A stretch of 64,000 bases of DNA from a virus. Where the stretch lies: the IMG/VR virus record IMGVR_UViG_3300030098_004409, positions 32,001-96,000 of that record. One strand, 5' to 3'. Below the pieces are notes generated by a model. That model made no database searches. It had not been told where the DNA came from and saw only the letters and a list, made by a program, of their open reading frames with translations. The position numbers and the translations under genes are program-made. This document shows, one piece after another, positions 31,396 to 64,000 of the stretch (positions are counted from its first letter, which is position 1; each line of letters begins with the position of its first letter).

Positions 31396-31428
31396 AAATA
31401 AAGCCCCGCGATTAAGCAGGGCTTTTTT
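31396..31428 (-). terminator. Intrinsic terminator for the minus arm (possibly bidirectional)
   Basis: The minus strand reads AAAGCCCTGC-TTAATC-GCGGGGCTTT followed by ATTT, with A/T tracts on both sides; lies between convergent arms. Confidence 0.7.
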
Positions 31429-31451
31429 AATGGACTTAAAGGCTCAAGTCT

Positions 31452-32390: not shown

Positions 32391-32471
32391 TATAAATTCT
32401 CCTTTATTGTATCTGAGAGTACCTTATGTTATATAATACACAAAAGAGCACTCATTGAGTTAAATTTTATG

Positions 32472-32894: not shown

Positions 32895-32895
32895 T

Positions 32896-39548: not shown

Positions 39549-39554
39549 AATATA

Positions 39555-43889: not shown

Positions 43890-43897
43890 TTGTTCTC

Positions 43898-44389
43898 CTA
43901 GCTATCTATTCCGGGACTAGACAATAGCGAGCTCTTTCTATGCGCGTTAGGTCTTCCAGACGATCTCCAATCATCTATCGTTTTCTGTCGGTCGGCAAAA
44001 CCTTTGCTCGGAGAGAAAAAACCATGCTCGTAAGTTCTAGTGTTTGTATCTAAATTAAAATATGATTCCCAGTATTCTACTTCTGAAGACTCCTTTGATT
44101 CCTCATTAGGTGTTAAATGTCCTCCACCTAAACTTTTTTCCCACACAAAGCCTTCGTGTATAACTATCTGTCCTAGATGATTAATGGCAGAAATGCCAGA
44201 GTTTTTACCTGCTCTTATCTGCTCAAATGTATACTGTTTTGATCTTGCGCCCTCTTTAAGATGGACACTGCCCTTCATGAATTTAACTTTGCCTCCTTTA
44301 CGAACTTCTGATATAGGGTCATAAATTCCCAATTCTGTTATGTCATAAAGCGGTGAAGGTTTTGATTCTGTTGATATTTTTTTTGGCAT
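43898..44389 (-). CDS. Hypothetical protein (163 aa)
   Basis: Fills the gap between flanking tail genes on the same strand. Confidence 0.55.
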   Translation of the reverse strand: MPKKISTESKPSPLYDITELGIYDPISEVRKGGKVKFMKGSVHLKEGARSKQYTFEQIRAGKNSGISAINHLGQIVIHEGFVWEKSLGGGHLTPNEESKESSEVEYWESYFNLDTNTRTYEHGFFSPSKGFADRQKTIDDWRSSGRPNAHRKSSLLSSPGIDS

Positions 44390-44390
44390 A

Positions 44391-45971: not shown

Positions 45972-46930
45972 TTAATATCCAAAAGTAATCATATTTAAGT
46001 TACCACTTCCATCGCCTATTCCAGATGGTATCACTAGTGTGGCGGTTTGTGACGCGATAGCTGCCCCAGATATATACACATTTGCGTTGCCCGAGTCCAT
46101 GATATTCTTTATATACAGAGATGTGTCTGACTCAAGCTCAAAACCTCCCCCAACACCTCTTCTGTATACTAACAGATCTAAATTGCCAGACCCTAGAGAG
46201 TGTGACATGAGCGATAAACTCATATCTGAGGACTCTATACCCCACCCCTTGTTGACATTTCTATCTTGCTCAGCTTGAGTGTTTTTCATAAACAGCGGCA
46301 ATCCTGCCTCTGATGGCCCAGAAGCGGGATCAACCTGAAGACGCATAAATGTCGTCCCGCTAGCTTCTAACTTCTCTGGTCCTTCAAGTCTTAAAGGCGA
46401 TACTCCTGAACTTGGACCAAAGTCGCCAGCTCCCATGTATAGCGAAACTCCCGTAACTGGATTTGCATTTACGTTTCCTGTCATTAAGAAATCTTGAGTT
46501 CCTGAAGCGTTGAACACATCTCGCTGACCAACCCTTAAACCAAAGGCTCCAGTTGTAACCATGCCTTCGACTGCGCCGCCAAGCGCATGGAGTGAGCTTT
46601 CCAGAGTAGAAGATCTATGGGCCGATATTGACAGGCTAGCATCAGTAGATATGCCGCTAGGTCCGAATGTTGTTAATGGAGAGATACCAGACGTTGGCTT
46701 CATGTCCGCATCCAAGAACAATGTAGGAGCTCCGAATATTGGCCCTCTCATATGAAGGGTAGGTGCTCCCGAAGCCGGCTCAGGAGTTTTCATGTATAGG
46801 CTCGTTATGTTTCCTGTTCCATAGGCGGCAAAGGTTATCCCTAAATCGCCCGAGGCAGCCCCAATAGGTTCGGTCACCAATGTAGTGGTCGCAGTGGAGT
46901 TTAGAGGGCCAGCAATGAATAGCGTGCCAT
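45972..46930 (-). repeat. C-terminal protein-level tract of roughly 14-aa repeats (x-S-G-x-x-x-L-x-hydrophobic-x-G)
   Basis: AASGDLGI, PASGAPTL, PTSGISPL, NASGTQDF, PSSGVSPL, EASGTTFM, PASGP, GSGNLDL, DSGNANV, GSGNLNM. Confidence 0.65.
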
Positions 46931-49900: not shown

Positions 49901-52900
49901 GAATATCATCTCTAGTAAATACATACTCTCCAATCCAGCCCTCGTTTTCAAGACTGCTTGATACATACTTTGCTCCACGGAACAACGAGCCAGAATCCTG
50001 AAGGCCGTCTTTATATAAAGGTGGGCTATCATTATCAGCATTAGTACTTGAGTTTGGGCCAAATGTTATTTTCGATGTGCTGATATTGCCCCCAACTTGA
50101 TTTATCGTATTTCTTGGGTCATCAGTATATAGCACCAAAGAGGGAAACACGGCAGCTGGAGAATTAGTTCCTACTGTAGTCGAGTTAGTGTCAACAGCAA
50201 CCTTTATTTTTAACCCTGTAATAATCCGCATTGAATTATTATCCTTGGGCAATGTTTCTATATTGTAGAAAGCACAAAATCCCGAATGCTGATCGTTGAT
50301 ATCGAATATGTTTGCTGGGTAGTTTATGCCAGTGTCTCCCGAATACCGATACATGCTGTTAAGATCAAAGGAATTCTTGGGATTAAAGGTTTCTAAAAAT
50401 GAAAAATATGGAACAGACTCTGATGTCCTTGCTTGTTCAAGATAAGTAGGTAGGATAGAGCGTCCGGAGTCGGAAAATATAGCAGTTTGGTGTGGTGTCA
50501 TTAACACTATTTTTCCATTTAATATGTCATACATATTAGACATAAAATAAGGAATTGTGGTGCTTTTGTGTGTGCCGCCAGAAAAAGTTATTGCCCCTTC
50601 TTTAAATCCATCAAGGGTTCGATTGGTGGAATCAACAACTGCTGGAGTTATCTTTTGTAAAAACCTTGAGACGCCGTTAGGTTTTACCTCGTATACATAA
50701 AGACGATGAGCCAAGGTAGGAGTATCACCTATTGAAGCATAGCCAAACTCGTTAGTATAAGAAGGCGCATTAGCAATGAGGAGTCCCTCATCGTACCTAA
50801 ATGAATAACCAAATGACTGCTTTAGAAGTTCGTCGCCCTGAAGATGTTTGCTCGCTATTGACTCCTGATCATTAAGATTTTGAAGCTGCTTATCAATACT
50901 ATACGCTGTAGCTGGGGCCTCCAAGCTCTTAGTTCCATATATAGGACATTTTATCATGTCTGACTGTGGATGAATAGTCCCTACTGTAAACTTTGTTGTG
51001 ATAGACTGCGTACGTGTTGTTCCGCGCTCATCTCCCAATATAAACCAGTCGGCATTGCCCTGCCCTATATCAGTTGATGGCAAAGTAATCTTTTCATGAA
51101 GGGTCCAAGTTCTAATTTCACTATCTTCATTGTAGTCACTGGGACGATATGTATAATATACCCAACCTTCTATAGCGTATTTATACGTTGGGTAGCTGTT
51201 TTTGGATTCAGGCTCCCCAAAGTGATACTCGTCCGTCATTAGTTTTTCCTCATCGGAGAAGTGATGATAGTCATCAACATTTTCCCCGATAGCAGGAGTA
51301 TTAAATCGTGACAACTGAGATAACGGATTTATTGGTGTGCCGCCCCTAAATCTACGTAAGTCTATCTTTGTTCTATGAGCAGTAACTGGAGGTTTTGTGT
51401 TTTTATAATAAAGATCTATCTTTTCACCCTGATTAAAGACCTTGATGTTACCTTCATCAGTTCCCACCAAAAGCATATTATCTTTAAATATCATAGCGGG
51501 AGGATTACCATACCAGTCGGTATAATCTTCATCGACATTCATGAAAGCTCTTGTAGCAATAGTCTCATTTGCTTTGATGTAATGATCTAATTCTTGAGGA
51601 TTTCCTCCAGTATTAGGGTTGCATATAAATATAGACCCCTTTGCAAAACGAGAACCCAATTCATTATCGTCAGAACAAAAGTCTCGTATAAAATCGTTCG
51701 ACTTAGTATGCCTATCTATAAAAGCCTGCGTAAAAGGGTCTTCGTAATCTTTTTTCTTTTTGTATGCATTAAGTGTAGTCTGCAAATACTGCAGCTGTCT
51801 ATCCACAGAAATACTAATTGAGGCAGAATATGGAAAGGTTGTATTTGAAATAGCAATAATAGGCTTTTCACCATTGGTCACATCATCAACCTTCATGCAC
51901 AAATTAAATCCGAAACCATCAGAAAATTTATAGCCATTAGTCATCCACCTAGCTTTTACTGTAGATGTTATTGGATATAGAGTATCCTTGTCTATGCCTT
52001 CAAGTTCTTCCCTATACTGACTGATTGAAGCGTTTCTGCCGTCACTATAAACTCCATTATTGTACCTATAATAAGGGAAAACTTTTTTGATGAAGAAGTC
52101 ATCTGTTTGACGTTGATCAGAGCCTGACTGTTTAAAAGACGATTTTCTATTACCCAAGAAGGTGGGGGTCATGCCTTTTACTACTGGTGTGGTATCCATA
52201 AAAACCATACCGCTTGTATGTCCTGCCTTGTCACCTACGATTCTATAATTTTGCACATTTGGAAATTTTCTCTCTTCATTGTCAAAGTTAGAAATAGTCC
52301 GTTTGCCCCGGTTTTTATAAACTATATCTGACACCAAGCCACCAGAAGATTTTTCTAATAGATGCTTGCTATCTCTTGCAGTAAATAAATCTCCTATATC
52401 TCCTTCTGAGATAAAATTGGATATCATCGCCCTGTGCCAATACAAGTTTCTGTAGTCTGTAAATTCAGAAAACTCAACTCCACCATCTAGAAAGGGTGGA
52501 GCTTTTATATATGGATTATACGTAGAAGCGTTTATTTCCTCTGCCTCGTTAATCGTGTGTATGCTGCCATCCGAAATATCTATTTTATAAAGCCAAACCC
52601 TACCATATGGCTCGTGCTTGGGGAATTTCATTTTATGTCCCCATTCAGGAATCCTAAGATGCTCTGAAGACTCATTTGAAGAAATTGGATCAAACTGTGA
52701 TTTGTGATATTCTTGATCGTAATTTATGCCATACTCGGAAGAATAGGTATTTCCCATCTCTCCAACCGCAAGCCAATAATAGTCTGTGCCGGGTTGTTTG
52801 ATGATGTCTAAAGACTGCCCAAACCGATATGCTTCGGGCAACAATTCTAAAGCGTCATAATTATCGTAGTCTCCTGTCGTTTTTTTGGGGGTCTCTCCAG

Positions 52901-54398
52901 CGATAATATACGAACCTTTGTCAGTATCCCCAGATCCATTGAGGCCGTTGGGGGAAAATAGAGTTGTCTTATATCTCCATGCCCCATTTGACTGCTGAGT
53001 ACCTTCGTGGTATGCCCAAGAAATTGAAGTTAAATCCCGCAAACCAGAAGTCGTTGTTGGTTGTGAAAAGTCCTTATCGTCATACAAAAGGTATTCTGTG
53101 TCAACAGCGGTTCTCTTTACATACTTGACTCCATTAATTGGATGGATTGTATCTTTACCAACATCACCAAGAGCCGAAACTATCTTAATTTTATCGCCAT
53201 TACACAACAACTTTGTATCGTGTGTACCGTCTCCAGAAGGTCCAGTGATGGTTATTTTATTTCCATCTACTGCAGTAATACCGCCTTTTCTTCTTTCATA
53301 GACATCAACTCTACCGCATCTATTTACAACACCCTTCTTGTAAAAGAAAGAACCGTCTTTAATTTTATCTGAAATATCTACCAGCATCTGGTATTTTTCA
53401 GGAACCTGAGTGGTTCCTTCTCTCATGATATACTTTATTGTCGTGCCGCTGCGACCGTTGTAAAGAGCGTGTAATTGCTGCTTTGTTATTTTGTCCTTAT
53501 TTTCGCTTGGTAAAGGATAAGCGAATCCGGTTTTATATTTAGGATTATTATAAATAGCTTCGTTATATGTCCATCTACCATCAATAGGGGCTTGTGCATT
53601 TATGTGATAAACAAACGGTCTAGCGAAAGACCAACTAAGGCCACCAAAGTCTTCCATTACAGCCCTATTAATGTCTCCATCAAAAGAAATCTCTTTTTCT
53701 CCGAGGAGCCAGTTGTCTTCATCGGGAGTGTCAGGTAATAAGTCCGCAAGCTCACTGAGGTCAATTCTGAATCTATAACCAATGTTTTTACCTGCGTTGC
53801 TTGGGCTTGACTCAATATCATGCCGATTTGAAACGGAAGCATCAGGGTCAAGTTGCCTACCCAAGAGTTGAGTAGGGCTTGTTGCTAGTGTGCCAATCTG
53901 TGGAAAAAATATTGCTGTAGTGAGCTCAGCGTCGCTTACAGAAAAGTCATGAAAAGATTCAACGCTCGTGTCTATTACTAGGTAAGCCTCTGTAATGGCT
54001 TCATTAGCAAGATAGACTTCTTGGGAATGATTGCGGTATGAGACGAGAGCAATATCATCGAGTATTTTAATATCGCTAGGGTTCATAGCGTCTTTTTTGC
54101 GATCTACTATCACCTGAGTGTAGTCTATGTTGTTTGGGTTGCTCTGGCCCTCCGGATACTTTGGTCCCCAGAGACCATAAATAGATTCTGTTCCAGATAG
54201 ATAAGGGCTATACCCAAAAGCATTTACATTTGGTGTTTGATTAAGAGTTGTTGCGCGATCATTGAAGTTCGTGAACTGATTAATTCCTCCGGGAGCTTGC
54301 ATGAAAAGATCAGACGCAGCGTTCCTTTGAAATGTACCATCAGTCCCCGTCTGGTCATTCTGTATATGTAATGATTTCTTTGTGTTGAATTCTCTCAT
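45972..54398 (-). CDS. Giant virion protein (2808 aa) with FG-GAP-like beta-propeller blades and Ser-Gly repeat tracts
   Basis: Blade motifs FGQSLDI, FGYSF, FGAKIKI..DLAFVASP, FGYDID, GRVDVY, GRVWLY, GAVHIF; two tracts of roughly 14-aa SG-containing repeats. Confidence 0.6.
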   Translation of the reverse strand: MREFNTKKSLHIQNDQTGTDGTFQRNAASDLFMQAPGGINQFTNFNDRATTLNQTPNVNAFGYSPYLSGTESIYGLWGPKYPEGQSNPNNIDYTQVIVDRKKDAMNPSDIKILDDIALVSYRNHSQEVYLANEAITEAYLVIDTSVESFHDFSVSDAELTTAIFFPQIGTLATSPTQLLGRQLDPDASVSNRHDIESSPSNAGKNIGYRFRIDLSELADLLPDTPDEDNWLLGEKEISFDGDINRAVMEDFGGLSWSFARPFVYHINAQAPIDGRWTYNEAIYNNPKYKTGFAYPLPSENKDKITKQQLHALYNGRSGTTIKYIMREGTTQVPEKYQMLVDISDKIKDGSFFYKKGVVNRCGRVDVYERRKGGITAVDGNKITITGPSGDGTHDTKLLCNGDKIKIVSALGDVGKDTIHPINGVKYVKRTAVDTEYLLYDDKDFSQPTTTSGLRDLTSISWAYHEGTQQSNGAWRYKTTLFSPNGLNGSGDTDKGSYIIAGETPKKTTGDYDNYDALELLPEAYRFGQSLDIIKQPGTDYYWLAVGEMGNTYSSEYGINYDQEYHKSQFDPISSNESSEHLRIPEWGHKMKFPKHEPYGRVWLYKIDISDGSIHTINEAEEINASTYNPYIKAPPFLDGGVEFSEFTDYRNLYWHRAMISNFISEGDIGDLFTARDSKHLLEKSSGGLVSDIVYKNRGKRTISNFDNEERKFPNVQNYRIVGDKAGHTSGMVFMDTTPVVKGMTPTFLGNRKSSFKQSGSDQRQTDDFFIKKVFPYYRYNNGVYSDGRNASISQYREELEGIDKDTLYPITSTVKARWMTNGYKFSDGFGFNLCMKVDDVTNGEKPIIAISNTTFPYSASISISVDRQLQYLQTTLNAYKKKKDYEDPFTQAFIDRHTKSNDFIRDFCSDDNELGSRFAKGSIFICNPNTGGNPQELDHYIKANETIATRAFMNVDEDYTDWYGNPPAMIFKDNMLLVGTDEGNIKVFNQGEKIDLYYKNTKPPVTAHRTKIDLRRFRGGTPINPLSQLSRFNTPAIGENVDDYHHFSDEEKLMTDEYHFGEPESKNSYPTYKYAIEGWVYYTYRPSDYNEDSEIRTWTLHEKITLPSTDIGQGNADWFILGDERGTTRTQSITTKFTVGTIHPQSDMIKCPIYGTKSLEAPATAYSIDKQLQNLNDQESIASKHLQGDELLKQSFGYSFRYDEGLLIANAPSYTNEFGYASIGDTPTLAHRLYVYEVKPNGVSRFLQKITPAVVDSTNRTLDGFKEGAITFSGGTHKSTTIPYFMSNMYDILNGKIVLMTPHQTAIFSDSGRSILPTYLEQARTSESVPYFSFLETFNPKNSFDLNSMYRYSGDTGINYPANIFDINDQHSGFCAFYNIETLPKDNNSMRIITGLKIKVAVDTNSTTVGTNSPAAVFPSLVLYTDDPRNTINQVGGNISTSKITFGPNSSTNADNDSPPLYKDGLQDSGSLFRGAKYVSSSLENEGWIGEYVFTRDDILEFINDSTFIKDSSSNRTIRNSDGKGSKVGSYVFAFDDKNQPAFDSTVTPESTLILGLVSHNLWRTPWKEDGEYITEDDRKSLNYIPYSKAYTPEINDHSFINKAKVLSVEVSYRDIEIAKVRKFDCKVIDDSHTDETDSIIRLGRSNTPAFYDDAGEIYAGTHSSSIQILKAGNGSATRTVSDFIANDMQNPEFLSLSILSLPQSSGKLTSNVIGSAPASGLMPMHISGVAPARGDTSLYIGPLESKQFLGVVLPSPFDFKCSTTSLFMPTPLGDFVSSTADLVFAGGSGVSNTTSLFTGAAAVSGVMNLGIGQSAPSSGNMNIAVSGVHGAYNSIPCMQGNLYMNSTHVDNSDMTIQMGRITTTAEETLFIGSPDPASGILGLNINTAPTNSGLDLYNKGYDLSSTTANLYIGEQSSEGSTTLFLMQPHRLPFEDPQSPPVLEEGDEIQIPPLYISGAAIPSANSLDNNYEHQKQIRYADKLFDKSPRAESLVSYTESNSISRNALDAGNTNDYGIKRISNVGARLSEYTGVGSFDFYENELSRESIDSNGSLLAIGANANVLVSQPKLDIFNILDSESVELHQTYTHFNKDLRSLGIITENQSVSLYFKDVKVSDKNKIAVSARVSVDASISDMIFILEDTSIEEVKTRINEIKECTLVKPPRFSSEIVTEERWGIVAAFTSNSWQNSDNNNIIINKFMGTSIEWKGEDLYYDKQSAQFASVYTRYESDNYASEERTISVFSISDMNGYVSNINNIPEGTKLAFGAKIKIVGDLAFVASPLLDPYIANNNLSGINAASPDGAVHIFKDDSGWSYVDSVYSGGYTTSTIGGLDSCAYDAKLFGYDIDYNQGSSLLAISEPISNTVYQFSVNDAGVPSLLNSYTNSDSRYGTFVNSSSRSLITNGSSSINDAVYNESISFNSSELTSEIQGYISQEEAISSVAHDVVLARSIDMKGTEALLAVRDFVVSYGAGKTLEVQKISLFKLKDINGTLFIAGPLNSTATTTLVTEPIGAASGDLGITFAAYGTGNITSLYMKTPEPASGAPTLHMRGPIFGAPTLFLDADMKPTSGISPLTTFGPSGISTDASLSISAHRSSTLESSLHALGGAVEGMVTTGAFGLRVGQRDVFNASGTQDFLMTGNVNANPVTGVSLYMGAGDFGPSSGVSPLRLEGPEKLEASGTTFMRLQVDPASGPSEAGLPLFMKNTQAEQDRNVNKGWGIESSDMSLSLMSHSLGSGNLDLLVYRRGVGGGFELESDTSLYIKNIMDSGNANVYISGAAIASQTATLVIPSGIGDGSGNLNMITFGY
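48520..49300 (-). repeat. Internal protein-level tract of roughly 14-aa SG repeats
   Basis: SSGKLTS, PASGLMPM, ISGV, GSGV, VSGVMNL, PSSGNMNI, VSGV, PASGILGL, NSGLDL, ISGA. Confidence 0.65.
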
Positions 54399-54404
54399 AC
54401 TCGC

Positions 54405-57400
54405 CTATGTTCTTCTATCTTGTCTGTCTCGGAAGTTCTGGAACATTTGTTTTAGTTTTCCTGTAGACTGCTGTGCTACCTGATCTGCTATTGTATTCAC
54501 AATACTGTTAATAGCTTCTTGCGAGAAGCCGGGTATAGACAACTGTCCGTTAACTGTAATATTGTGATTAATTGATATATTGCTCATCTGTGCTATTGTA
54601 GAACTGAGCAGCTCAGAAAGCGCACTAAATCCATTAAAAGCAGCAGTAAATCCATCAAAAGCTGTTGCGATGCTAGAGCTAAGTGTATTAATTGAATTGC
54701 TTAAGGCGCTGAAGTCAAGACCGCCCGAACCAGATGCTAGGTCTCCATTTGTTAAGTATTGTACTCCCCCGCCATGCTTCATTCCGGGAGCGCCTTTATG
54801 ACCTTTATTGATAGATCTCATAAACCCTACACCGTATTTGTCTACAGCAGATTTGCTCATCACAAACTCGCCCGGAGTCAACATAGCTGGCACTGTATCA
54901 GTCCCCTTAGCCATACCACCCTTGGCGAAGTAACTAGCACCGAATGAACCAAAATCATTAGGCAAAGCTCCAGTAGCGTAGGTGTCTTGTATCATTTTTA
55001 GCACTTCATTCGGGTATCCAGTCTTCCATCCTGCAGCGACTCTTTCTCTTACAAATGCTCCCATTTGCTCAACAGGATTCCATGCTCCAGATTTAATCCT
55101 ATCAACCAAAAAGGCTGCTGCCTGCTGCGCTAACCCACCACTAAAAGTGAAAGAGCCTAACTCGCCAAGTGCCATACCAGCGCGCCTAACTGCACCATCA
55201 AATCCCGGAAGCTTTCTCTGTTGAGCATACCTACTCCATAGCGCTGCAAACATAGGACCTGTAGCATTAGCTAAAGACATCGTGTCGGAGCCTGCAACAG
55301 GAATCGCGCCGGGAGCTCCGATCGCGCCACCGGGATTTGCTACAACATCTGTAAACAAGAATGGTCCCGACATGCCAAATCTTGGAAGCCCAGCAAAATA
55401 CCCACCAAAGTCAAGGTTTTTTACATCTGAATCCCTAGTCAGCGAAAAGGCGTAAAAGTATCCATCTGACCGACTTGCGTCTTTAGCGTATAAACCATTT
55501 TCGTTATTTCCAACGCCGGTATATTTATACGTGCCATGATTAGGATCAAATCCACTTGCAAAAGGAAGTCGATTCCAAACACCTCTTCCATGTTCGTTAA
55601 TATTCATCATATATGATTTAACTATATCAGCACCAAAAAGTGGTGTGTTGCCTTTGGAAAATTGGCCTATCCATTTGGCTGCGATTGCGGGGTCTTCTTT
55701 TTCCATGTCGTTTGTAGTCCAGAACATTGGATCTATTACTGGACCTCCCTCAGCAAACATCTGGGGAACTGCTCCGCTATTTATTGCGCTCATGAATGAT
55801 TTACCGTATTTGCCTACGGCAGATTTTTTCATAACAAATTCGCCGGGAGTTAGCATCGCTGGAACAGTATCTTTATTACCAGCGCCCGGAACAGAACCAC
55901 CAGTAGCAAACTTAAATCCTCCACCTAGAACTCCGTTAGCATTTAGGCTATTCATCAAAGCGTCCATTCTTATATCGAAGCGTTGAGCTAATCCAAATGT
56001 CACTCCCTGATGCTGAACCCAAGCGTTGTTAATCCACCCTATAATCTGATTCAATACACCTTGTGCTGCAACTAGAGCGATGGACAAAGCTTGCATGTCA
56101 CCTACTAACTGATTTCCTATTGGGGTCATTACCTCAAGATCTGCTTCTAGTGAAGCTGCTTCACCGCTGGTAAGCATGCTAGAGGCCATATTACCTATGT
56201 CGTCATTGTTATCTTGAATAACAACAGAATTAGCTTGTGCTTGCTGAAGTATCGCTTTGACTGTTGATTGGTCCGCCAACAGTTCGTTGTTGGCTGTATT
56301 TGCCTGAATATTCGATGTATTATCTGTAATATGTGTCAGAGATTTTTCTACGCCCTTTATATCCGCTGAATTTAATTTTACTGTATTAAGAATTTTATCT
56401 AATCTCATATCACGAGCAGGGCCGAACTGAGATACTGCACGACCTCCAGTAGAGAAGTAAGGCCCTGTGTTGCCGAGCCCTCCACCGTTAATACTAGCCA
56501 TGAAGCCTAAGCCATATTTGTCTACGGCAGATTTCTGCATAACGAACTCGCCCGGTGTGAGCATTGCTGGAACCGTGTCTGTACCCTTGGGGCTCCAGTC
56601 AACACCGCCAATTGGACCACCCTTTGCTTTCATTTGAGGCTTGGGAGCTACACCAAAGCCCATGTCAGGAAGCGCGAATGGTTGATTTGCTCCGGCGGCA
56701 TTTTGAGGCGGCAACCCTACTTTTAGCCATTGTGGTATCTGCCCGAGTTCCTTACTAAACCAATCACTCCAAGGTCGTGATGGGTTCGCTATGTCTGCAT
56801 CTATGATGGCGTCGCGAGCACTGTTTTGCATTCTGGTTAGATGATCATCAATTGGTTTAAAACCAAAGAATAACCCTAACATGAATTCATCAAACCTTTC
56901 GCCAATATTCTCCCAAGTTGGATAGTGGTCAGTTGTCCATTCCTTCATTTGAGCTAATGCTTTTGCGTTCATCGTCAACAGGCCGGCTGCTCCTCCTGCA
57001 GGTATACCTGCGCCGGGCTTCAAAAGTTTACCCTTAAGACTCATTTGGCTAAATGACAAACTCCCATCAGCATTTGCTGCTGTTACATGACCTGACGCCC
57101 CCATTCCCAAAACAGTCTGCCCCAAAGCAGCAAAATATGGGAATAGACCATCAAAATGTTCCGCGTTTCTTTTTACGTCTGAAAGCCACCTTACGGTTCG
57201 GTTGTCTTCAATTCTAGGGTCGAATACACCCTCTTTTCCAAATAACTGATGATCTTGAGGTATTCGTGCTATGCCAATTAGAGGTGGCTCAGGAGATTCG
57301 CCCAGAACACGGAAAAGTGTTGATGCTTTCTGTTCTGGAGTACCGTATCCAATTTTAAAGTTTCTTCTTAAGGCCGCTACTACACCTGCTTCTTGGGCTG

Positions 57401-60400
57401 CATCTCCAGCTGCTTCGTCCGCTGCAGCTTGTTCCGCTTCATTTTTGATGGCCCCTAGATTGTCCCCGCCTAATTTAAACTTAGCATTTCCCCTCCCGAA
57501 AACGTTAATTTCAATAGCATCAAGCAAATTCGCCACGGCCTCAGCATCTCCTCCTCTTAATGCATTAGCAAGTGCTACAAACTGACCTTTAGTATCGTTT
57601 ACGATTTTCTGCCCGGATGCGTTCTTAGCAATTAGATCTCTTGAGAAGTCTTTTCCCAAAACAGAACTGCCTTTCCAAGGTATATATCCCAATGCGCCAA
57701 AGAAGGACTCATTAATTTTTTCGACCAGATCACCTACTGGTCCAACTCTCCACTCACTTTTGAGGCTGGAATACGGGTACTTCAGGGTCTTATCTATTGC
57801 GTCTCTTGAAGTGACACCCGGACCGACTGACCATTTAGACCATGAAGAGTTAGTAATAAGATCTGCCATCTTTTCAACCGTTCCATCCAGCTTCAGTGGG
57901 AAGAACTTAGGGTCTTTAAAAAATTCTGTTATGTTATCAGCGAATGCTTTATTATCATACATGTTGGATTTGACATATTTTCCCCAGTTGCCGTAACTGC
58001 GATCCATTAGCCCAGACGCTGCCTTTTTAAAGTTTTTAGTCATTTCTTTGACATTTACCAAACCTTTTGCTGATGAGAGCATTGGACCATACCAAAGCGC
58101 ATCAGCCTCTTTCCACATTGTATCAATCTCATCAACAAAATTAAAGGATTGCTGGGTTGGACTTTTATAAAAACCATAAGCGTTGTTCATATCCGGATAC
58201 AACATATTATATGCAGATTGTGGCGTATAGAAAGGTTGACCATTTATTATAGTTCCGGGAGGCCATATGGCACCAGTTGTAGTCATCTTTTCCAGATTCA
58301 TTATACCTGTTTTCATAGCCGGTATGTTAGCAAAGAATTCAGATTTATTTGGTATTTCCCCGAGATTGAACTCATCAATGTCAGCCTGTCTCTTGACTAT
58401 AGCACGAAGTGCATTAGCAAACTTTGTGTCAAACAAAGCCACATCAGTACCGGGATCTTGATTAGCAAAAATCCATGCCAGATCTGTTGTAAGCCCTTCC
58501 CCTTGAGCGTAATCATAGATAAGAGCACCTTTCTCTGGAGCACCAATTGCCGATTTGCCTTTATAGCTAGAATCGTAAAAGAATCTGATATAGTTAACCA
58601 GATCCGTTAAGTGCTTTGGATCTTTAACGGATGAGACGCCGGGAAATGTTGTCATCCACTTAACAGAATTGACAGCTCCTGCATACCCATTTTTATTGTT
58701 TGGCGGATTCTTTAAAAGATCATGCACATTATAATAATCGTAAACCGCCTGCAGATGATACTTCCACTTGTCAACATCCCATCCTTTTCTCTGAAGAGCA
58801 CCATCCTTAGATATAGAAAACGGACTTTTGACGATGCTACCGGGTCTATAGTTATTCCATGCCGGAAATTTTTCACCTAACTGACTTCCCGTATCATATT
58901 TTATATATCCAGCCATTCCGCCTCCGCCCATCTCTCCGGGAAGCCAATCGCCAGCATCTTCAACTTTAATGCTTGATCCTGCGTTTAAAAGACTTTTGTG
59001 ATTTTCCTTTAAAGCTTCCTTAAGAGCTATACCGTCATCGCTAAAAGACTTAGATAGCTTATCGACGGCTCCGCTATTGTTGGGAGATGTCACAACTCCA
59101 CCTTTAGCCAAGTATGTAGTTTTTCCACTATTTATAGATTTTAGCAACCCCATATTTTGAGATGTTGCTTTTTTATTAACAACAAACTCTCCCGGCGTCA
59201 ACATAGCAGGAACAGTGTCTGTGCCTTTAGCTTTAAATGCTGTGTTACTTATGCTCTGACCTTCTGCGGCATAAATAATACCCCCTTGAGCTCTTCTTTG
59301 TGGAGGTCTTCCCCCTCCTGCAGCATCGCCGCCAGCATCTCCCGCTGCTATCTGAGCGTCTTCTAGTGTGGCAACCAAATCACCAATTGCGGCTATAAGA
59401 TCCTGCATCTGCTGGAATTCTGCCTGTTGAAGCGCTGTAGCAGCAGCTTGTTCTTCCGCATTAATTGCTCTTAAATCGTTTATAAGCTTGTCTTCTTTTG
59501 TAGTAGACTCAAAAATCTTTTTCAATTCTTGTGGATTTAATCCGAAACCACGAGCTCTAATAGCCAATGCGTTTGCCATCTGAGCTTGTAATCTTTTGGA
59601 TATATCTCCGCCAGTCATTCCCGGACGGAGTTCTATATCTTTAAGTCTATCAAGCAGTCCACCAACAGCACCTCTCATTTGATCTGGAATCGCATTGAGA
59701 TTACCGGTAGCTAAAACTCTTTGCAATGCAACAAAAGTTTTATCCATTTCTAATCTTGATTCATTACTGGCAAAAGTGAACTCTTTGATGAGACCTTGAA
59801 TCGTCTCTCTATTACCTCGCTCTTTTTCGATCTCTCCCATTACGGCGGCAGCTAACTCAGCTTGATTCGCTAAATCAGCCAACCCTTCCTTGAGAAGCTT
59901 CGTCTCGTTGTTCAATTTTTTCTGCTCGTTTTGAAGTTTAATTACTTCTTCGGCCTGACCTCTGTCCGCTTTAATTTTTATTTGGGCGGCTACTTCTTGT
60001 TGGCGCTGTCTCTTTCTTTCTAGCTGTATATTTATTGCCTCAACTCCGCCTCCAACTAGACCTGCTCCTGCCAAAGGTGCATTTCTTCTCTGCTCTGCTG
60101 CTGCACCAACTTCCCCAACTGTTAGTTGTCTACCTTGGGCCTTGGCTAGCCTTTCCGCTCCTTTGATTTGCACATCAACCATTTTGGTGAAAGCTTTAGC
60201 GACCGAATTCTCAGCCTTGATCACAGCGTCACCAAACTTGAAGAGCGCGCCAAGATATGCATTTTGAGCTTTAGCCAAGTCCTGAAGAACCTTAATTTGT
60301 TCTTCATTAGCTTCATTCAGTATCGAAGTTATTTCTTGTATTTCATCTGGAGTCAAGCCATCTTCAAACATGGCTAGTATTTCGTTTCTTATGTCTGCAT

Positions 60401-63400
60401 CAAGACCACTCAGATCTATACCTTGATCCCTGAAAAATTCATCAACTTTAAGTTCAGATGCAGTCTCGCTTAGACTACCACCAAATTCCCTTAAGCCTTC
60501 TTCTGTTAGAACTTTTCTAATCCTTTCAGTCTCTTTCATTTGTTCGAGCAGTTTTTGAGTCTCTCCTTCTATACCAAATTGCTCAGCCGTCTGCATGGCT
60601 GCCTGCTCTGCCTCTGGAGTGATAGTTCCACTGGTTAGTGTCCCTATCAGTTTATCATTTTGGGTTCTGTATTGTTTTACGCTTCCTGTGAGAGCGCCAA
60701 ATTCCATCATTACACTATCCATAGTGCCGCTGAAGTTTAGTAGCTCTACAGCAAATACGTCTATCGCTGCGGCAGCCTGAGCAGAAGCTCTAGCCATAGC
60801 TATGTCTGCTCGTAGCTTTTGTTCAGCAGTTTCCCTAGCTTTTTGCTCGGCTTCAAGTCTTTCTTTGTCGGCTTTCTTTTGGGCCTCCATTGCCTTTTCT
60901 GCGTTTGAATTTGCCTCCTGCTGTATTAAAGTCGATTCTAGAGTAGCTATCTGCCTTCTCTGCTCGACAGTCATATTCTCTTCTAATACGCCTACAAGCC
61001 CTAACCTTGCTTTGGCCTCTTGTTTCATTTGACCAGTCATTAACATCTGTACGCTAAATGCTTGCCTAATAGCGTTTCCAAGGTTCTGATAACCTTTCTG
61101 TACATCCTTATTGGCCAAGACCTCTTCAATACTCTTGCCGCTTTTGGATAGCTCGTCAATAGTGCCTCTAATACCACTCCTGAGTTTCTCGGCCTGCTCA
61201 AATAAAGTCTGTGCCATCTCTTTCATGGCGTCAACACCTTTTTCTCTTATTTCAGTGAAAATTTCTGAAGCATCCATATCTGCTCGCACATCCGAGGTAG
61301 CCCCTGATTCAAGCATCATGAACGCTTGCATGGCGCCGGCTGCTCCGGTAGCTTTAGTTGAAAATTCTTCAAATGCAGTGTTCTGTCTTTTTAGCAGCTC
61401 TATACCGTCTAACTGTTCAAGCTCCATCATCTTCTGAGCATTTGATAGGTTCCCCACGGCTGCAGCTGATTCATACAAAGCGGTCGCAAGGAGCGTCCCT
61501 CCATTGAGTATTCCTTCTTCGGCAGTAGCAAAAGACTCTCCAATCTTATAGCCCGCCGCCGCTACTGCAACCGCTGCTACAGTTCCCGCCGCCGCCAGAC
61601 CTACAAGCGCAGGTATAGCTAAACTCAAACCTCCAGTAAACGGAACAAGTACTACGGCAAGAGCTGTAACGGCTGCACCGATGGCGGCGCCCCACAGTCC
61701 TCCGGACGCAGCTGCTTCAGCTTGTAAAGCGCTTCTTACCCTCTGTTGACTTTGCGCTAAATTCTCGGCTGCCGCACCTCCTTCTTTGAGAGAGCTAATC
61801 GTATCGTGAAATCCTTTGGCCATATCTTCTGCCGCAGCTTTGGCATTCATAAACATAAGAACAGCGACAGTTATTCCTATGGTAAGTATAGCCGCAGCAC
61901 CCCCAACCCTAAGCATTGCAGCAGTAGCTAGATTGGAAGCTTGAGTCTCATAGTGTTTAGCTGCAGTATTAAGGCCGGATGCCTTCATTTCCTGAGCCTT
62001 AGCAAGTGCGTTTTGATAAGTTGTATTCTTTTCTAAAAGTTTAGCGACAACGCTTTCAGTCGCTGACGCGGCAACCATACCAAACATCGTGACAAGCATA
62101 GTACCTGTCATAATCATTTCATTTAATTGGTCATCGAACAAACCTAATTGCTGCGTCACCATCGGAAGCATCATTCCCAACATCATCATGTTGTTCATAG
62201 CCGCCATGCCTCCTCCGCCACCTCCTCCGGCGGCGACTGCTACTCCACCACCACCTCTTGGTGCTCCTGTTGTTGAGGCTGCTGCTCCGGCTTTGTTTAT
62301 ATTGGCAATAGCTGCAGTTATAGCAGCTTCCAATTTTTCAAAGAATTGATCTGTATCGGCAGAAGCCATGCTAACCTGAGTGACAGATATCGCGCCACTA
62401 TTTAGACCTTTAGTCATATCCAAGATGGCGTCATTAAGGCCACTGAGTAGATAATAAGTTCCACCTAGTCGATTAGCAATATTTAGCATTTGTTTTGATA
62501 CGGTAGCTACGGGCGCAGCGAGCTTAGCAAACATATTACCCGCTCCGCCAATACCTGTAATAGCATTTGTCATGCCCTTAACAACATTTGTGGCTCCCGC
62601 CATTAGAGCGTTGGCGACGTTGATACTTACTTCAGCAAGAAGTTGACCAGACGCGTTTAGAGCATTACCCATAAGTATTGCTCCTGAACTCATTGGGTTC
62701 AGATCATCTAATCGAGCAATGACCGAGCCACCAAACGTATTAAGGTCAGTTGCTACGGCCTCAATGGGGGTTACTAGCGTGTCAAAAAGCGCAACTTTTT
62801 CTATCAGTTCTTTTCCAAAAGTATTTAGATGCTTTTCTACCTCTTTCATTGCTCTCTCTACGGCTTTACCGGGACCTGAGAATTGCGCTTTGAGAGTCTT
62901 ATCTATAGTTGTAAGGCCTTTAGCAAAATCGGCCATAGAGGTTTTGACTACTGATACAGTAGAATCAATCTGTGCTTTGAAAGTGTCATCTATTGTTGAC
63001 ATCCCGGCAGCAAAGTTTTGCACACCTTCAGAAACTACTGTCCCCGCATTAGCTATAGAACCAGCTAGAGGTTGTATAGCTCCGATTAGTTTCTCGTCTA
63101 TTGATTGCAGAACATTGATATCGTCAACGGCAGTAGATATAGTATTAGCAAGAGCATTAGCTGCGCCGTTTATCTTTTCGTCTATTCCTTGAAGGGCTGC
63201 GAAGTCATCGACAACTTGAGTTAGAGACTGGCCAATCGTATCTAATTTATATGATAGGGTTGTGGCGGATTTGGCTAGTGCCTCCATAGAGGTATTAACA
63301 CCTGTGCCAATATTCATTCCCCCGCCAGCAGGAACTCCAGTGCCACTAGTTCCATTGGCGAAGAACTGGACTGGGCCACCTTTATTAAAATTGGCAACTC

Positions 63401-63998
63401 CTTGCTTGTTCATTCTATTTAGGTTGCCATAGCCTATCTGCTGAGCAGACTTTTTATTTATTACATACTCACCGGGAGTTAGCATTGCGGGTACAGTATC
63501 TACTTGACCGCCGGAGTTATACGCTCCTATTCTTCCGCCAAAGAACTTGCCTACTTGTGACAAACCTCTCGATAACGCAGCTTGAGTTGCAGACTGTTGT
63601 GCTGGACTATCGGGAGTTCCTTGTGTCCTTCTTATTTTGAGTCCAAAATTTGCCGCCGATTTATTTGATTCGCCTATGAGGGTATTTAGTATTTTTGTGG
63701 TCATAGATCCATCTTTGCCACTTATCTGATCTGTACCAAAAGTCTTTTTAAGCTCCAAAGCCTCTATGTTCTTCATTGACTTTGCATCAAAAAGTTTTTC
63801 AAGTTGTTTCTGATGGGTCTTGGGGTTGGGCATATCCCAGCCGCCTCTAGCTTCTGCTAGCGGAGCGCCTGACAGCATAGAGGTTACAGCCTCAAACATC
63901 AAACCAGAAATTGTATTTAGGTCTATAGACGCGAGAGCAGAATCCGCAGCTTTTGTCTCATCAAAAGTTAAATGCGGAGGAACATCAAACGAAAGCTC
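54405..63998 (-). CDS. Tail tape-measure-like protein (more than 3,190 aa; start lies beyond the window)
   Basis: Long Ala-rich helical/coiled-coil regions, hydrophobic Gly/Ala segments and the TMP-type DTVPAMLTPGEFV motif. The frame has no stop up to the window edge. Confidence 0.8.
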   Translation of the reverse strand, partial: ELSFDVPPHLTFDETKAADSALASIDLNTISGLMFEAVTSMLSGAPLAEARGGWDMPNPKTHQKQLEKLFDAKSMKNIEALELKKTFGTDQISGKDGSMTTKILNTLIGESNKSAANFGLKIRRTQGTPDSPAQQSATQAALSRGLSQVGKFFGGRIGAYNSGGQVDTVPAMLTPGEYVINKKSAQQIGYGNLNRMNKQGVANFNKGGPVQFFANGTSGTGVPAGGGMNIGTGVNTSMEALAKSATTLSYKLDTIGQSLTQVVDDFAALQGIDEKINGAANALANTISTAVDDINVLQSIDEKLIGAIQPLAGSIANAGTVVSEGVQNFAAGMSTIDDTFKAQIDSTVSVVKTSMADFAKGLTTIDKTLKAQFSGPGKAVERAMKEVEKHLNTFGKELIEKVALFDTLVTPIEAVATDLNTFGGSVIARLDDLNPMSSGAILMGNALNASGQLLAEVSINVANALMAGATNVVKGMTNAITGIGGAGNMFAKLAAPVATVSKQMLNIANRLGGTYYLLSGLNDAILDMTKGLNSGAISVTQVSMASADTDQFFEKLEAAITAAIANINKAGAAASTTGAPRGGGGVAVAAGGGGGGGMAAMNNMMMLGMMLPMVTQQLGLFDDQLNEMIMTGTMLVTMFGMVAASATESVVAKLLEKNTTYQNALAKAQEMKASGLNTAAKHYETQASNLATAAMLRVGGAAAILTIGITVAVLMFMNAKAAAEDMAKGFHDTISSLKEGGAAAENLAQSQQRVRSALQAEAAASGGLWGAAIGAAVTALAVVLVPFTGGLSLAIPALVGLAAAGTVAAVAVAAAGYKIGESFATAEEGILNGGTLLATALYESAAAVGNLSNAQKMMELEQLDGIELLKRQNTAFEEFSTKATGAAGAMQAFMMLESGATSDVRADMDASEIFTEIREKGVDAMKEMAQTLFEQAEKLRSGIRGTIDELSKSGKSIEEVLANKDVQKGYQNLGNAIRQAFSVQMLMTGQMKQEAKARLGLVGVLEENMTVEQRRQIATLESTLIQQEANSNAEKAMEAQKKADKERLEAEQKARETAEQKLRADIAMARASAQAAAAIDVFAVELLNFSGTMDSVMMEFGALTGSVKQYRTQNDKLIGTLTSGTITPEAEQAAMQTAEQFGIEGETQKLLEQMKETERIRKVLTEEGLREFGGSLSETASELKVDEFFRDQGIDLSGLDADIRNEILAMFEDGLTPDEIQEITSILNEANEEQIKVLQDLAKAQNAYLGALFKFGDAVIKAENSVAKAFTKMVDVQIKGAERLAKAQGRQLTVGEVGAAAEQRRNAPLAGAGLVGGGVEAINIQLERKRQRQQEVAAQIKIKADRGQAEEVIKLQNEQKKLNNETKLLKEGLADLANQAELAAAVMGEIEKERGNRETIQGLIKEFTFASNESRLEMDKTFVALQRVLATGNLNAIPDQMRGAVGGLLDRLKDIELRPGMTGGDISKRLQAQMANALAIRARGFGLNPQELKKIFESTTKEDKLINDLRAINAEEQAAATALQQAEFQQMQDLIAAIGDLVATLEDAQIAAGDAGGDAAGGGRPPQRRAQGGIIYAAEGQSISNTAFKAKGTDTVPAMLTPGEFVVNKKATSQNMGLLKSINSGKTTYLAKGGVVTSPNNSGAVDKLSKSFSDDGIALKEALKENHKSLLNAGSSIKVEDAGDWLPGEMGGGGMAGYIKYDTGSQLGEKFPAWNNYRPGSIVKSPFSISKDGALQRKGWDVDKWKYHLQAVYDYYNVHDLLKNPPNNKNGYAGAVNSVKWMTTFPGVSSVKDPKHLTDLVNYIRFFYDSSYKGKSAIGAPEKGALIYDYAQGEGLTTDLAWIFANQDPGTDVALFDTKFANALRAIVKRQADIDEFNLGEIPNKSEFFANIPAMKTGIMNLEKMTTTGAIWPPGTIINGQPFYTPQSAYNMLYPDMNNAYGFYKSPTQQSFNFVDEIDTMWKEADALWYGPMLSSAKGLVNVKEMTKNFKKAASGLMDRSYGNWGKYVKSNMYDNKAFADNITEFFKDPKFFPLKLDGTVEKMADLITNSSWSKWSVGPGVTSRDAIDKTLKYPYSSLKSEWRVGPVGDLVEKINESFFGALGYIPWKGSSVLGKDFSRDLIAKNASGQKIVNDTKGQFVALANALRGGDAEAVANLLDAIEINVFGRGNAKFKLGGDNLGAIKNEAEQAAADEAAGDAAQEAGVVAALRRNFKIGYGTPEQKASTLFRVLGESPEPPLIGIARIPQDHQLFGKEGVFDPRIEDNRTVRWLSDVKRNAEHFDGLFPYFAALGQTVLGMGASGHVTAANADGSLSFSQMSLKGKLLKPGAGIPAGGAAGLLTMNAKALAQMKEWTTDHYPTWENIGERFDEFMLGLFFGFKPIDDHLTRMQNSARDAIIDADIANPSRPWSDWFSKELGQIPQWLKVGLPPQNAAGANQPFALPDMGFGVAPKPQMKAKGGPIGGVDWSPKGTDTVPAMLTPGEFVMQKSAVDKYGLGFMASINGGGLGNTGPYFSTGGRAVSQFGPARDMRLDKILNTVKLNSADIKGVEKSLTHITDNTSNIQANTANNELLADQSTVKAILQQAQANSVVIQDNNDDIGNMASSMLTSGEAASLEADLEVMTPIGNQLVGDMQALSIALVAAQGVLNQIIGWINNAWVQHQGVTFGLAQRFDIRMDALMNSLNANGVLGGGFKFATGGSVPGAGNKDTVPAMLTPGEFVMKKSAVGKYGKSFMSAINSGAVPQMFAEGGPVIDPMFWTTNDMEKEDPAIAAKWIGQFSKGNTPLFGADIVKSYMMNINEHGRGVWNRLPFASGFDPNHGTYKYTGVGNNENGLYAKDASRSDGYFYAFSLTRDSDVKNLDFGGYFAGLPRFGMSGPFLFTDVVANPGGAIGAPGAIPVAGSDTMSLANATGPMFAALWSRYAQQRKLPGFDGAVRRAGMALGELGSFTFSGGLAQQAAAFLVDRIKSGAWNPVEQMGAFVRERVAAGWKTGYPNEVLKMIQDTYATGALPNDFGSFGASYFAKGGMAKGTDTVPAMLTPGEFVMSKSAVDKYGVGFMRSINKGHKGAPGMKHGGGVQYLTNGDLASGSGGLDFSALSNSINTLSSSIATAFDGFTAAFNGFSALSELLSSTIAQMSNISINHNITVNGQLSIPGFSQEAINSIVNTIADQVAQQSTGKLKQMFQNFRDRQDRRT
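54744..63521 (-). repeat. Five dispersed 55-65 aa modules, ..GG..DTVPAMLTPGE(F/Y)V..K.A....(I/M)N..GG
   Basis: Modules at about 63351-63521, 59097-59294, 56442-56633, 55743-55910 and 54744-54932. The 13-aa cores lie at 63462-63500, 59181-59219, 56541-56579, 55833-55871 and 54861-54899. Confidence 0.9.
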
Positions 63999-64000
63999 TT

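What the first reader, a model, noticed from the sequence alone, without database searches (positions are those of the whole stretch)
54405..63998. Tape-measure protein built as a modular polyprotein: five Gly-Gly-bounded DTVPAMLTPGE modules separate distinct domains
Seen: DTVPAMLTPGE(F/Y)V occurs five times, identical at 12 of 13 residues but with diverged synonymous codons, which points to protein-level selection rather than recent duplication. Each module is flanked by an x-x-x-G-G motif, often with an aromatic first residue (YNSGG/FNKGG, RAQGG/LAKGG, KAKGG/FSTGG, FATGG/FAEGG, FAKGG/MKHGG). The segments between modules differ completely: about 1350 aa helical with hydrophobic segments, 820 aa aromatic globular, 180 aa helical, 270 aa globular and a 110 aa C-terminus. 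Established: TMPs are often proteolytically processed and ejected into the cell, and several viral proteases cut polyproteins after Gly-Gly (adenain, ASFV pS273R). Inference: the module is a reiterated cleavage, chaperone-docking or packaging signal that turns the TMP into a magazine of injected cargo proteins, and may also act as a recombination joint for cargo exchange.
Basis: partly seen in the sequence, partly recalled or inferred. Interest (0 to 1): 0.85.

Follow-up and report, generated by a model that had tools for sequence, protein, structure and literature searches.

The report
Repeated lambda-type joints in giant tape measure
The tail "ruler" protein of an uncultured phage is 3,849 residues long and is divided into fixed and swappable segments by six old copies of a short conserved joint that phage lambda's ruler carries once, beside the zone where lambda cuts it; cutting here is plausible but untested.

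Summary
The minus-strand ORF is a true tape measure protein (Pfam PhageMin_Tail, 95.6 bits). It runs past the window's end: 3,849 aa in all, with six modules, not five.

Each module is about 65-80 aa: aromatic-x-x-GG, then DTVPAMLTPGE(F/Y)V, two short helices, then aromatic-x-x-GG. The cores are identical in protein but differ at 7-11 of 39 bases. Copies group by position across relatives, so they are old and under protein-level selection.

No Pfam or NCBIfam model detects our copies. A profile of them finds 21,785 protein clusters, including giants with up to 10 copies. It also matches lambda gpH 725-791 and mycobacteriophage Douge TMP twice. In lambda this region is unresolved and abuts the Gly-rich zone where gpH is cut; site and protease are unknown.

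Relatives share a fixed frame and swap the segments between modules, with breakpoints at the GG boxes.

Not shown: cutting at GG, a protease, or any cargo function. The module and S3 models are low-confidence, and no cassette has a family hit.

This scan found the same module on other DNA before, with the same verdict. First reading: partly supported.

The parts
54405..64000 (-). Tape measure protein gene, the part inside the window (residues 653-3849 of 3,849). The gene continues to virtual window position 65954. The N-terminal PhageMin_Tail domain (residues 1-455) and module M0 (residues 456-536) lie beyond the window's end.
   Evidence: Pfam PF10145 at 95.6 bits against a cut-off of 33.2
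63348..63590 (-). Module M1 (residues 789-869): YNSGG, core DTVPAMLTPGEYV, FNKGG
59310..63332 (-). Segment S2, cassette B (1,341 aa). Helical and low in aromatics. Part of the constant frame shared by all relatives.
61545..62117 (-). Three hydrophobic stretches inside S2 (residues 1280-1299, 1343-1376, 1417-1470). Candidate membrane-inserting part, as in other tape measures.
   Evidence: Kyte-Doolittle, window 19, above 1.6
59067..59309 (-). Module M2 (residues 2216-2296): RAQGG, core, LAKGG
56670..59072 (-). Segment S3, cassette D (801 aa). Rich in aromatics and proline, function unknown. Variable slot: relatives carry D, K, L or M here.
56427..56669 (-). Module M3 (residues 3096-3176): KAKGG, core, FSTGG
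55950..56417 (-). Segment S4, cassette J (156 aa, helical). Variable slot: relatives carry J, Q, G, N, O, R or S here.
55719..55961 (-). Module M4 (residues 3332-3412): FATGG, core, FAEGG
54975..55721 (-). Segment S5, cassette H (249 aa). 13% aromatics, function unknown. Variable slot.
54747..54989 (-). Module M5 (residues 3656-3736): FAKGG, core, MKHGG. By position it is the counterpart of the single module of lambda gpH and of ordinary tape measures.
54408..54752 (-). Segment S6, cassette C (115 aa, helical). Constant C-terminal end and likely tip anchor, by analogy with gpH 818-849.
   Evidence: PMC10721106, PMC12617516

Best explanation
The gene encodes a genuine but giant tape measure protein. 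It has a constant frame: an N-terminal PhageMin_Tail core (A), a 1,340-aa helical segment with three hydrophobic stretches (B), and a 112-aa C-terminal end (C). Between these lie variable cassettes.

All segments are joined by six copies of one conserved joint. The joint reads aromatic-x-x-GG, then 2-20 residues, then DTVPAMLTPGEFV, then two short helices ending in Asn, then aromatic-x-x-GG. It is the same element that ordinary tape measures carry once, 50-110 residues before their C-terminus. Lambda gpH carries it at 725-791.

Shown:
- The copies are old, position-specific and held by selection on the protein.
- The joint does not fold on its own.
- Relatives exchange whole cassettes with breakpoints at the GG boxes.

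Inferred:
- The joint folds or docks only in the assembled tail, against a partner common to very different tails or against other copies of itself.
- As in lambda, it marks where the chain is cut after the tube has been measured.
- The cut segments would then lie stacked in the tail lumen and leave C-terminal piece first at infection: the tip anchor, then the globular cassettes, then the membrane-inserting B segment.

I put cutting at about 0.4 and the rest of the description at about 0.9.
For: TMP identity: PF10145, E 4.7e-27.

Six modules, synonymous divergence and invariant cores.

Across 140 diverse copies, the near-invariant positions are both GG pairs, D-T-V-P-A, L, P-G-E-F-V and N.

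Copies group by position, not by protein.

Spread: 21,785 clusters at E<=1e-3 and 1,189 at E<=1e-30. Proteins reach 7,872 aa with up to 10 copies. There is about one module per 730 aa, with r=0.82 between length and copy number.

Homology to lambda gpH 725-791 (E 2.4e-6) and to Douge gp16 at 962-1028 and 1411-1472 (E 3e-14).

Published cryo-EM models of gpH cover only residues 818-849 (PMC10721106, PMC12617516). gpH is cut in the Gly-rich region near its C-terminus, and both site and enzyme are unknown (PMC12617516). Masses place a 78-80 kDa product end at residues 710-737, next to FATGG at 733-737.

AF2 of the module with a 140-sequence alignment gave pLDDT 60 and only two short helices.

Cassette map A-m-{E|F}-m-B-m-{D|K|L|M}-m-...-m-C, with identity jumps at the GG boxes.

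In cultured phages the single module sits just before the C-terminal end: CN1A, Ares1, Jojan60. In Synechococcus phage S-SCSM1 gp213 it sits directly before a glucosaminidase domain, module 599-666 and PF01832 697-816.

T5 pb2 is cut between its hydrophobic part and its muralytic domain (bioRxiv 10.1101/2022.09.20.507954).
Against: No cleavage at a module has been mapped in any phage. Lambda's cut is placed only by gel mass.

Lambda's copy lacks the D-T and Asn that are near-invariant elsewhere.

T5 pb2 is cut but has no module. Thermus phage P23-45's 5,002-aa tape measure also has no module.

No protease was found in the record.

No gene is naturally split at a module in 87 loci.

Thirteen invariant residues plus two helices is far more than a protease site normally needs, which favours a docking or assembly role.
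Confidence: 0.5

Rival explanations
1. Uncut docking or assembly joint. The module is never cleaved. It is a repeated binding element for a partner shared by many tail types: the tail tube or distal-tail lumen, the tail assembly chaperone, or other copies of itself in the trimer or hexamer. It pins or registers a very long, heterogeneous tape measure inside the tube. Cassettes swap at its edges because those are the only permissive junctions.
For: The sequence constraint is extreme, over about 50 residues in thousands of proteins. The monomer does not fold. The module occurs in tails with unrelated tips, namely lambda-like, mycobacteriophage and T4-like cyanophage, so no tip-specific protease can be the common partner. 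No protease was found and no split genes were seen. The first copy always sits right after the PhageMin_Tail core, most often around residue 450.
Against: In lambda, the one phage with biochemical data, the module lies next to the processing zone (PMC12617516). In S-SCSM1 gp213 it directly precedes an enzyme domain, the layout at which T5 pb2 is cut (bioRxiv 10.1101/2022.09.20.507954). No partner has been identified.
Confidence: 0.35
2. Self-cleaving module. The conserved polar residues (Asp, Thr, Glu, Lys, Asn) carry out autoproteolysis once the tape measure oligomer is confined in the tube, so no separate protease is needed.
For: The catalyst of gpH cleavage is unknown after 40 years (PMC12617516). 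The invariant polar residues are D31, T32, E41 and N61. By eye, the spacing of T..L..GEFV resembles the GxSM..L..GD strand of S24/S26 serine peptidases, most clearly in Douge's SDSMLARVSNGEFI. No protease gene is present.
Against: No Pfam peptidase model matches even at E<=1. Lambda's copy, the one known to be next to a cut, lacks D, T and N. Fifty residues are too few for an S24-type fold. AF2 shows no fold.
Confidence: 0.08
3. Purely a recombination linker. The repeat is kept as DNA homology for cassette shuffling and has no role in the protein.
For: Cassette breakpoints coincide with the modules.
Against: The protein cores are invariant, while third-codon positions are close to saturated both within the gene and between relatives, at 28-37 of 39 bases identical. 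This is the opposite of conservation at the DNA level. The breakpoints fall at the GG boxes, not in the core.
Confidence: 0.03
4. LysM-like peptidoglycan-binding unit that anchors the ejected tape measure in the cell wall.
For: By eye, the GEFV-helix-helix-N pattern has the same G-to-N spacing as LysM, and AF2 predicts two short helices there.
Against: The LysM model finds nothing in the whole record even at E<=10, while the positive controls respond. Pfam gives no hit on the module at E<=1. The model confidence is low.
Confidence: 0.04

Closest known systems
Phage lambda tape measure gpH, C-terminal region (gpH* + gpHC maturation)
   Same: The profile of our modules matches gpH 725-791: FATGG, a GEFV core, K-x-A, then YATGG. 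As with our last module M5, it sits between the ruler part and a short C-terminal helix that binds the tip. gpH is cut in the adjoining Gly-rich zone after tail assembly (PMC12617516).
   Different: Lambda has one copy and ours has six. Lambda's copy lacks the D-T and Asn positions. Lambda's N-terminal domain is TMP_2, ours is PhageMin_Tail. Lambda has no globular cassettes. NCBIfam TIGR01541 spans the lambda region (472-813) but does not detect our modules.
Mycobacteriophage Douge tape measure gp16 (PDB 8ZDO)
   Same: Two copies of the module lie inside a 1,699-aa tape measure. Only the last 42 residues are resolved, as a trimer in the hub (PMC13033339).
   Different: It has fewer copies and a variant core (SDSMLARVSNGEFI). 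Nothing is known about processing.
Phage T5 tape measure pb2 (pb2* + pb2C)
   Same: A tape measure is cut during tail assembly between its hydrophobic segment and a muralytic domain. The released piece stays in the tail and is proposed to be expelled into the periplasm (bioRxiv 10.1101/2022.09.20.507954). This is the functional model for a tape measure acting as a two-part polyprotein.
   Different: pb2 has no copy of this module in the profile search of PDB sequences. It has one cut and one cargo.
Thermus phage P23-45 gp96, a 5,002-aa tape measure
   Same: A giant tape measure in a cultured siphophage. From my own knowledge its tail is very long, so giant tape measures can act as rulers along their length.
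   Different: It has no module at all.
Viral polyproteins cut after Gly-Gly (adenovirus adenain, ASFV pS273R); double-glycine leader peptidases (C39)
   Same: Only the x-x-G-G motif at segment borders.
   Different: No homologue of C5, C48, C39 or JAB peptidases is found in the record.

Membership tests
Tail length tape measure protein (Pfam PhageMin_Tail / TP901-type) | Match to PF10145 above the curated cut-off | tested here: met
   Residues 140-343, E 4.7e-27, 95.6 bits against a cut-off of 33.2. Nearly all multi-module relatives carry PF10145.
Tail length tape measure protein (Pfam PhageMin_Tail / TP901-type) | Long helical segment with hydrophobic, membrane-type stretches | tested here: met
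   S2 is 1,341 aa with 45% A/E/L/K/Q and 3.8% aromatics. Hydrophobic stretches lie at residues 1280-1470.
Tail length tape measure protein (Pfam PhageMin_Tail / TP901-type) | Gene lies between tail tube/chaperone genes and tail tip genes | tested here: inconclusive
   The gene sits in a same-strand block of large ORFs. None of the 18 neighbours has a usable Pfam or PHROG hit.
Tail length tape measure protein (Pfam PhageMin_Tail / TP901-type) | Tail length proportional to protein length | not testable with these tools
   The phage is uncultured. Predicted length is about 577 nm if all 3,849 aa count at 0.15 nm each, and about 310 nm if only segments A, B, J and C count.
gpH-type joint module (uncatalogued; lambda gpH 725-791) | Significant profile match between our modules and gpH | tested here: met
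   A 140-sequence profile matches gpH 725-791 with E 2.4e-6 against 177,635 PDB sequences. The match was repeated.
gpH-type joint module (uncatalogued; lambda gpH 725-791) | Aromatic-x-x-GG boxes on both sides of a P-A..L..GEFV..K.A core | tested here: met
   All six copies have the upstream box and five of six have the downstream box. Both GG pairs are at least 90% conserved in 140 copies.
gpH-type joint module (uncatalogued; lambda gpH 725-791) | A copy 50-150 aa before the C-terminus | tested here: met
   M5 ends 112 aa before the stop. The distance is commonly 93-147 aa, with a minimum of 60, in 51 complete relatives. Lambda, CN1A, Ares1 and Jojan60 show the same placement.
gpH-type joint module (uncatalogued; lambda gpH 725-791) | Proteolytic cut beside the module | not testable with these tools
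   Known only for lambda, and only to gel resolution (PMC12617516).
Viral polyprotein | Cleavage at each junction into separate mature products | not testable with these tools
   No proteomic data exist for this or any multi-module phage. No natural gene splits occur at modules.
Viral polyprotein | A cognate protease | tested here: not met
   PF14464, PF00877, PF03412, PF02902 and PF00770 have no match at E<=1 in the 110-kb record. Neighbouring ORFs have no protease hit. The record is only about 71% complete and very divergent, so this is weak negative evidence.
Viral polyprotein | Segments are independent functional proteins | tested here: inconclusive
   S1, S3, S4 and S5 have no Pfam or NCBIfam hit. 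The atlas search gave nothing usable for S3 and only unnamed viral clusters for S5. AF2 of S3 gave pLDDT 46.6.
LysM domain | Match to PF01476 | tested here: not met
   No match at E<=10 in the whole record, while controls respond.

The most novel reading that the evidence does not exclude
Giant tape measures are true polyproteins. Each gpH-type joint would be cut after the tail is measured, so the tail lumen holds an ordered stack of separate proteins, some freely exchangeable between phages. These would be injected ahead of the DNA. The same joint would then explain the 40-year-old unknown of where and how lambda gpH becomes gpH*.
Probability: 0.35. Interest if true: 0.85.

Novelty: new variant of a known kind. 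Interest (0 to 1): 0.6.

Why it matters
Tape measures are known to set tail length, to be cut once in lambda and T5, and sometimes to carry an enzyme domain.

What is new here is a discrete joint module that no Pfam or NCBIfam model picks out. It is present in at least 21,785 protein clusters and is multiplied up to ten times in giant tape measures. Whole segments are exchanged between related phages at its edges.

Because lambda carries one copy beside its unmapped cleavage zone, the element gives exact residues to mutate in a tractable phage. That turns two open questions into bench tests: where and by what gpH is cut, and whether tape measures deliver several proteins.

It would also merit a family model of its own for phage annotation.

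Tried and rejected
- LysM-like reading of the helix pair: the LysM model finds nothing at E<=10.
- S24/S26-like strand: the resemblance is by eye only, and no Pfam hit appears on the module at E<=1.
- Literature search for the core peptide: no paper holds it. Searches on 'tape measure' with 'polyprotein', and on processing terms, gave nothing on this module.
- Fold of the module: AF2 with 140 sequences gave pLDDT 60, so no fold search was run on it.
- Fold of S3: five sequences, pLDDT 46.6, unusable.
- ESM Atlas: no usable hit for S3, and only unnamed viral clusters for S5.
- PHROGs and Pfam on 18 neighbouring ORFs: only DUF6171 in a 140-aa ORF.
- GG-specific protease families in the whole record: none.
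- Thermus phage P23-45 giant tape measure as a tail-length calibrator: it has no module.
- Natural gene splits at modules: none in 87 loci.
- DNA-level homology as the driver of exchange: cores share only 28-37 of 39 bases between relatives.
Protein-level comparison and locus L099 were used instead.
Full report
WHAT IS THERE

The finding lies on the minus strand. Window 54405-63998 is one open frame of 3,197 aa that runs off the window's right end. The window is bases 32001-96000 of a 110,288-base IMG/VR virus record that CheckV rates 71% complete.

The full gene is C1:86405-97954, 3,849 aa. Its first 455 residues, outside the window, match Pfam PhageMin_Tail at 95.6 bits against a cut-off of 33.2. 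The tape measure assignment therefore stands.

THE REPEAT

DTVPAMLTPGE(F/Y)V occurs five times in the window and a sixth time at residue 486, just outside it. The six 39-nt cores differ pairwise at 7-11 bases. Apart from the F/Y codon, every difference is synonymous.

Aligned, the unit is about 65-80 aa. It reads:
- an aromatic-x-x-GG box;
- 2-20 variable residues;
- the core;
- x-x-K-x-A and a stretch ending in Asn;
- a second x-x-x-GG box, absent only after the first copy.

GG dipeptides are three times enriched next to the cores. The module occurs nowhere else in the 110-kb record.

HOW WIDESPREAD

Pfam and NCBIfam have no model that detects the module. PHROGs families hit the protein mainly at the module positions.

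A profile of the six copies, run against 1.84 billion representative proteins, gave:
- 21,785 proteins at E<=1e-3;
- 6,682 at E<=1e-10;
- 1,189 at E<=1e-30.

The top hits are 2,000-7,900 aa long with 3-10 copies. In nearly all of them the first copy follows the PhageMin_Tail core, most often around residue 450, and PF10145 is the only Pfam domain. Copy number tracks length, r = 0.82, at about one copy per 730 aa.

Among cultured phages the module occurs in tape measures of Vibrio, Clavibacter, Gordonia, Stenotrophomonas, Pseudomonas and Acinetobacter siphophages. It also occurs in a hub-region virion protein of T4-like cyanophages. In ordinary tape measures it is single and sits 50-110 aa before the C-terminus.

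LINK TO SOLVED AND STUDIED PHAGES

I took 140 diverse copies from 90 viral loci and built a profile from them. Against all PDB chain sequences it matches two proteins:
- lambda gpH at 725-791, E 2.4e-6;
- mycobacteriophage Douge gp16 at 962-1028 and 1411-1472, E 3e-14.

Neither region is resolved. Published lambda models cover only gpH 818-849, bound to gpI (PMC10721106, PMC12617516). Douge shows only residues 1658-1699 (PMC13033339).

[quoted passage not shown] The site and the catalyst are both unknown. My mass calculation puts a 78-80 kDa product end at residues 710-737, and the upstream box FATGG is at 733-737. The cut zone therefore abuts the module, within gel resolution.

In lambda, Pfam domains cover residues 54-256 and 627-701, not the module. 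The long NCBIfam model TIGR01541 spans 472-813 but does not see our copies.

T5 pb2 is also cut, between its hydrophobic part and its muralytic domain (bioRxiv 10.1101/2022.09.20.507954). It has no module.

In Synechococcus phage S-SCSM1 gp213, the module (599-666) directly precedes a glucosaminidase domain at 697-816. In Gordonia phage GMA4, two modules precede a C-terminal SLT domain.

STRUCTURE

AF2 on module M5 with the 140-sequence alignment gave mean pLDDT 60 and only two short helices. The module does not fold alone. This fits its absence from cryo-EM maps and suggests folding on a partner or in the oligomer.

CASSETTE EXCHANGE

I compared the protein with its nearest relatives from three searches.

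| Relative | S0 | S1 | S2 | S3 | S4 | S5 | S6 |
|---|---|---|---|---|---|---|---|
| P0003 | 94% | none | 90% | 50% | 29% | 41% | 94% |
| P0153 | 89% | 78% | 51% (first third only) | none | 83% | 42% | 46% |
| P0165 | 95% | 60% | 50% | 29% | none | none | 94% |

Cutting 25 relatives at their modules and clustering the pieces gives the map A-m-{E|F}-m-B-m-{D|K|L|M}-m-{J|G|Q|I|N|O|R|S}-m-{H|I}-m-C. Alternative cassettes combine freely.

Fifty-residue identity profiles jump at the modules. Residue-level alignments place the breaks at or within about 15 residues of the GG boxes.

A tree of modules groups them by position, not by protein. The frame of modules is therefore old and stable, and only the contents of the slots change.

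The cores are invariant in protein but share only 28-37 of 39 bases between relatives. The pattern shows permissive junctions. It does not show recombination driven by DNA homology.

WHAT IS NOT SHOWN

- No cleavage at a module has been mapped anywhere.
- No GG-type protease (JAB, NlpC/P60, C39, C48, C5) is detectable in the record. Eighteen neighbouring ORFs are blank in Pfam and PHROGs apart from one DUF6171. Because almost nothing in this phage matches anything, that absence is weak evidence.
- No related ORF starts or ends at a module.
- The 'cargo' segments have no family. The atlas search gave nothing usable for S3 and only unnamed viral clusters for S5. The S3 model is unusable at pLDDT 46.6.
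- Thermus phage P23-45's 5,002-aa tape measure has no module, so giant size does not require it.

READING

Most likely the module is a partner-dependent joint that strings a constant tape-measure frame together with exchangeable inserts. I give about 0.4 that it is also the post-assembly processing site, as its lambda counterpart suggests.

The main rival, at 0.35, is an uncut docking or registration element. It is favoured by the very large conserved surface and by the module's presence in tails with unrelated tips. Self-cleavage, a pure DNA linker and a LysM-like role are minor or rejected.

EARLIER NOTES OF THIS SCAN

I consulted these after I had reached the lambda link. They show that the same module was found and followed up on several other genomes, with the same verdict. 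This report is therefore a further instance, not a first sighting. Those notes are not independent evidence. The claims I reuse were re-tested here.

Noticed in passing
window 45972-54398 (-): A 2,808-aa ORF lies directly downstream of the tape measure gene. It has no Pfam or PHROG hit. It is presumably a tail tip, hub or fibre protein.
   Followed up: partly
window 31452-45959 (-) and L005:3053-12670 (-): The other 17 tail-region ORFs flanking the tape measure (7 downstream, 10 upstream) give no Pfam or PHROG match, except DUF6171 / phrog_13558 in the 140-aa ORF at window 32472-32894. The phage is very far from anything annotated.
   Followed up: partly
window ~31400-32500: Strand switch: ORFs are on the + strand up to about 31.5 kb and on the - strand beyond. 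GC skew changes sign at the same place.
   Followed up: no
L098:4777-5376 (lambda gene K): Lambda gpK matches NlpC/P60 (E 3.4e-13). It also has a partial match to Prok-JAB just below the cut-off (23.3 bits against 25; only the last third of the model). A JAB-type enzyme would cut after Gly-Gly, which makes it a candidate for the unknown gpH protease. This is untested.
   Followed up: no
L007:3177-6029 (Synechococcus phage S-SCSM1 gp213): A T4-like cyanophage virion protein, not annotated as a tape measure, carries one module at 599-666. A glucosaminidase domain follows immediately at 697-816.
   Followed up: partly
proteins P0183, P0184, P0010: Some giant multi-module tape measures carry EF-hand calcium-binding Pfam domains (PF13202, PF13405, PF00036).
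   Followed up: no
loci (gap list); P0008, P0013, P0023, P0027, P0031, P0039: A few tape measures have two modules in direct tandem or overlapping, with gaps of -6 to +12 aa. These are double joints.
   Followed up: no
virtual window 64347-64589 (module M0, outside the window): The first module lacks the downstream GG box in this phage (MNGYNTGTVGRG). The 94%-identical relative P0003 has GGG there. The S1 cassette swap begins exactly at this point.
   Followed up: partly
window 63741-63910 (-), inside segment S1: Another first-stage note proposes a PD-(D/E)xK nuclease signature here. Pfam gives no hit on S1. The cassette (type F) has an alternative, unrelated type E in close relatives.
   Followed up: no
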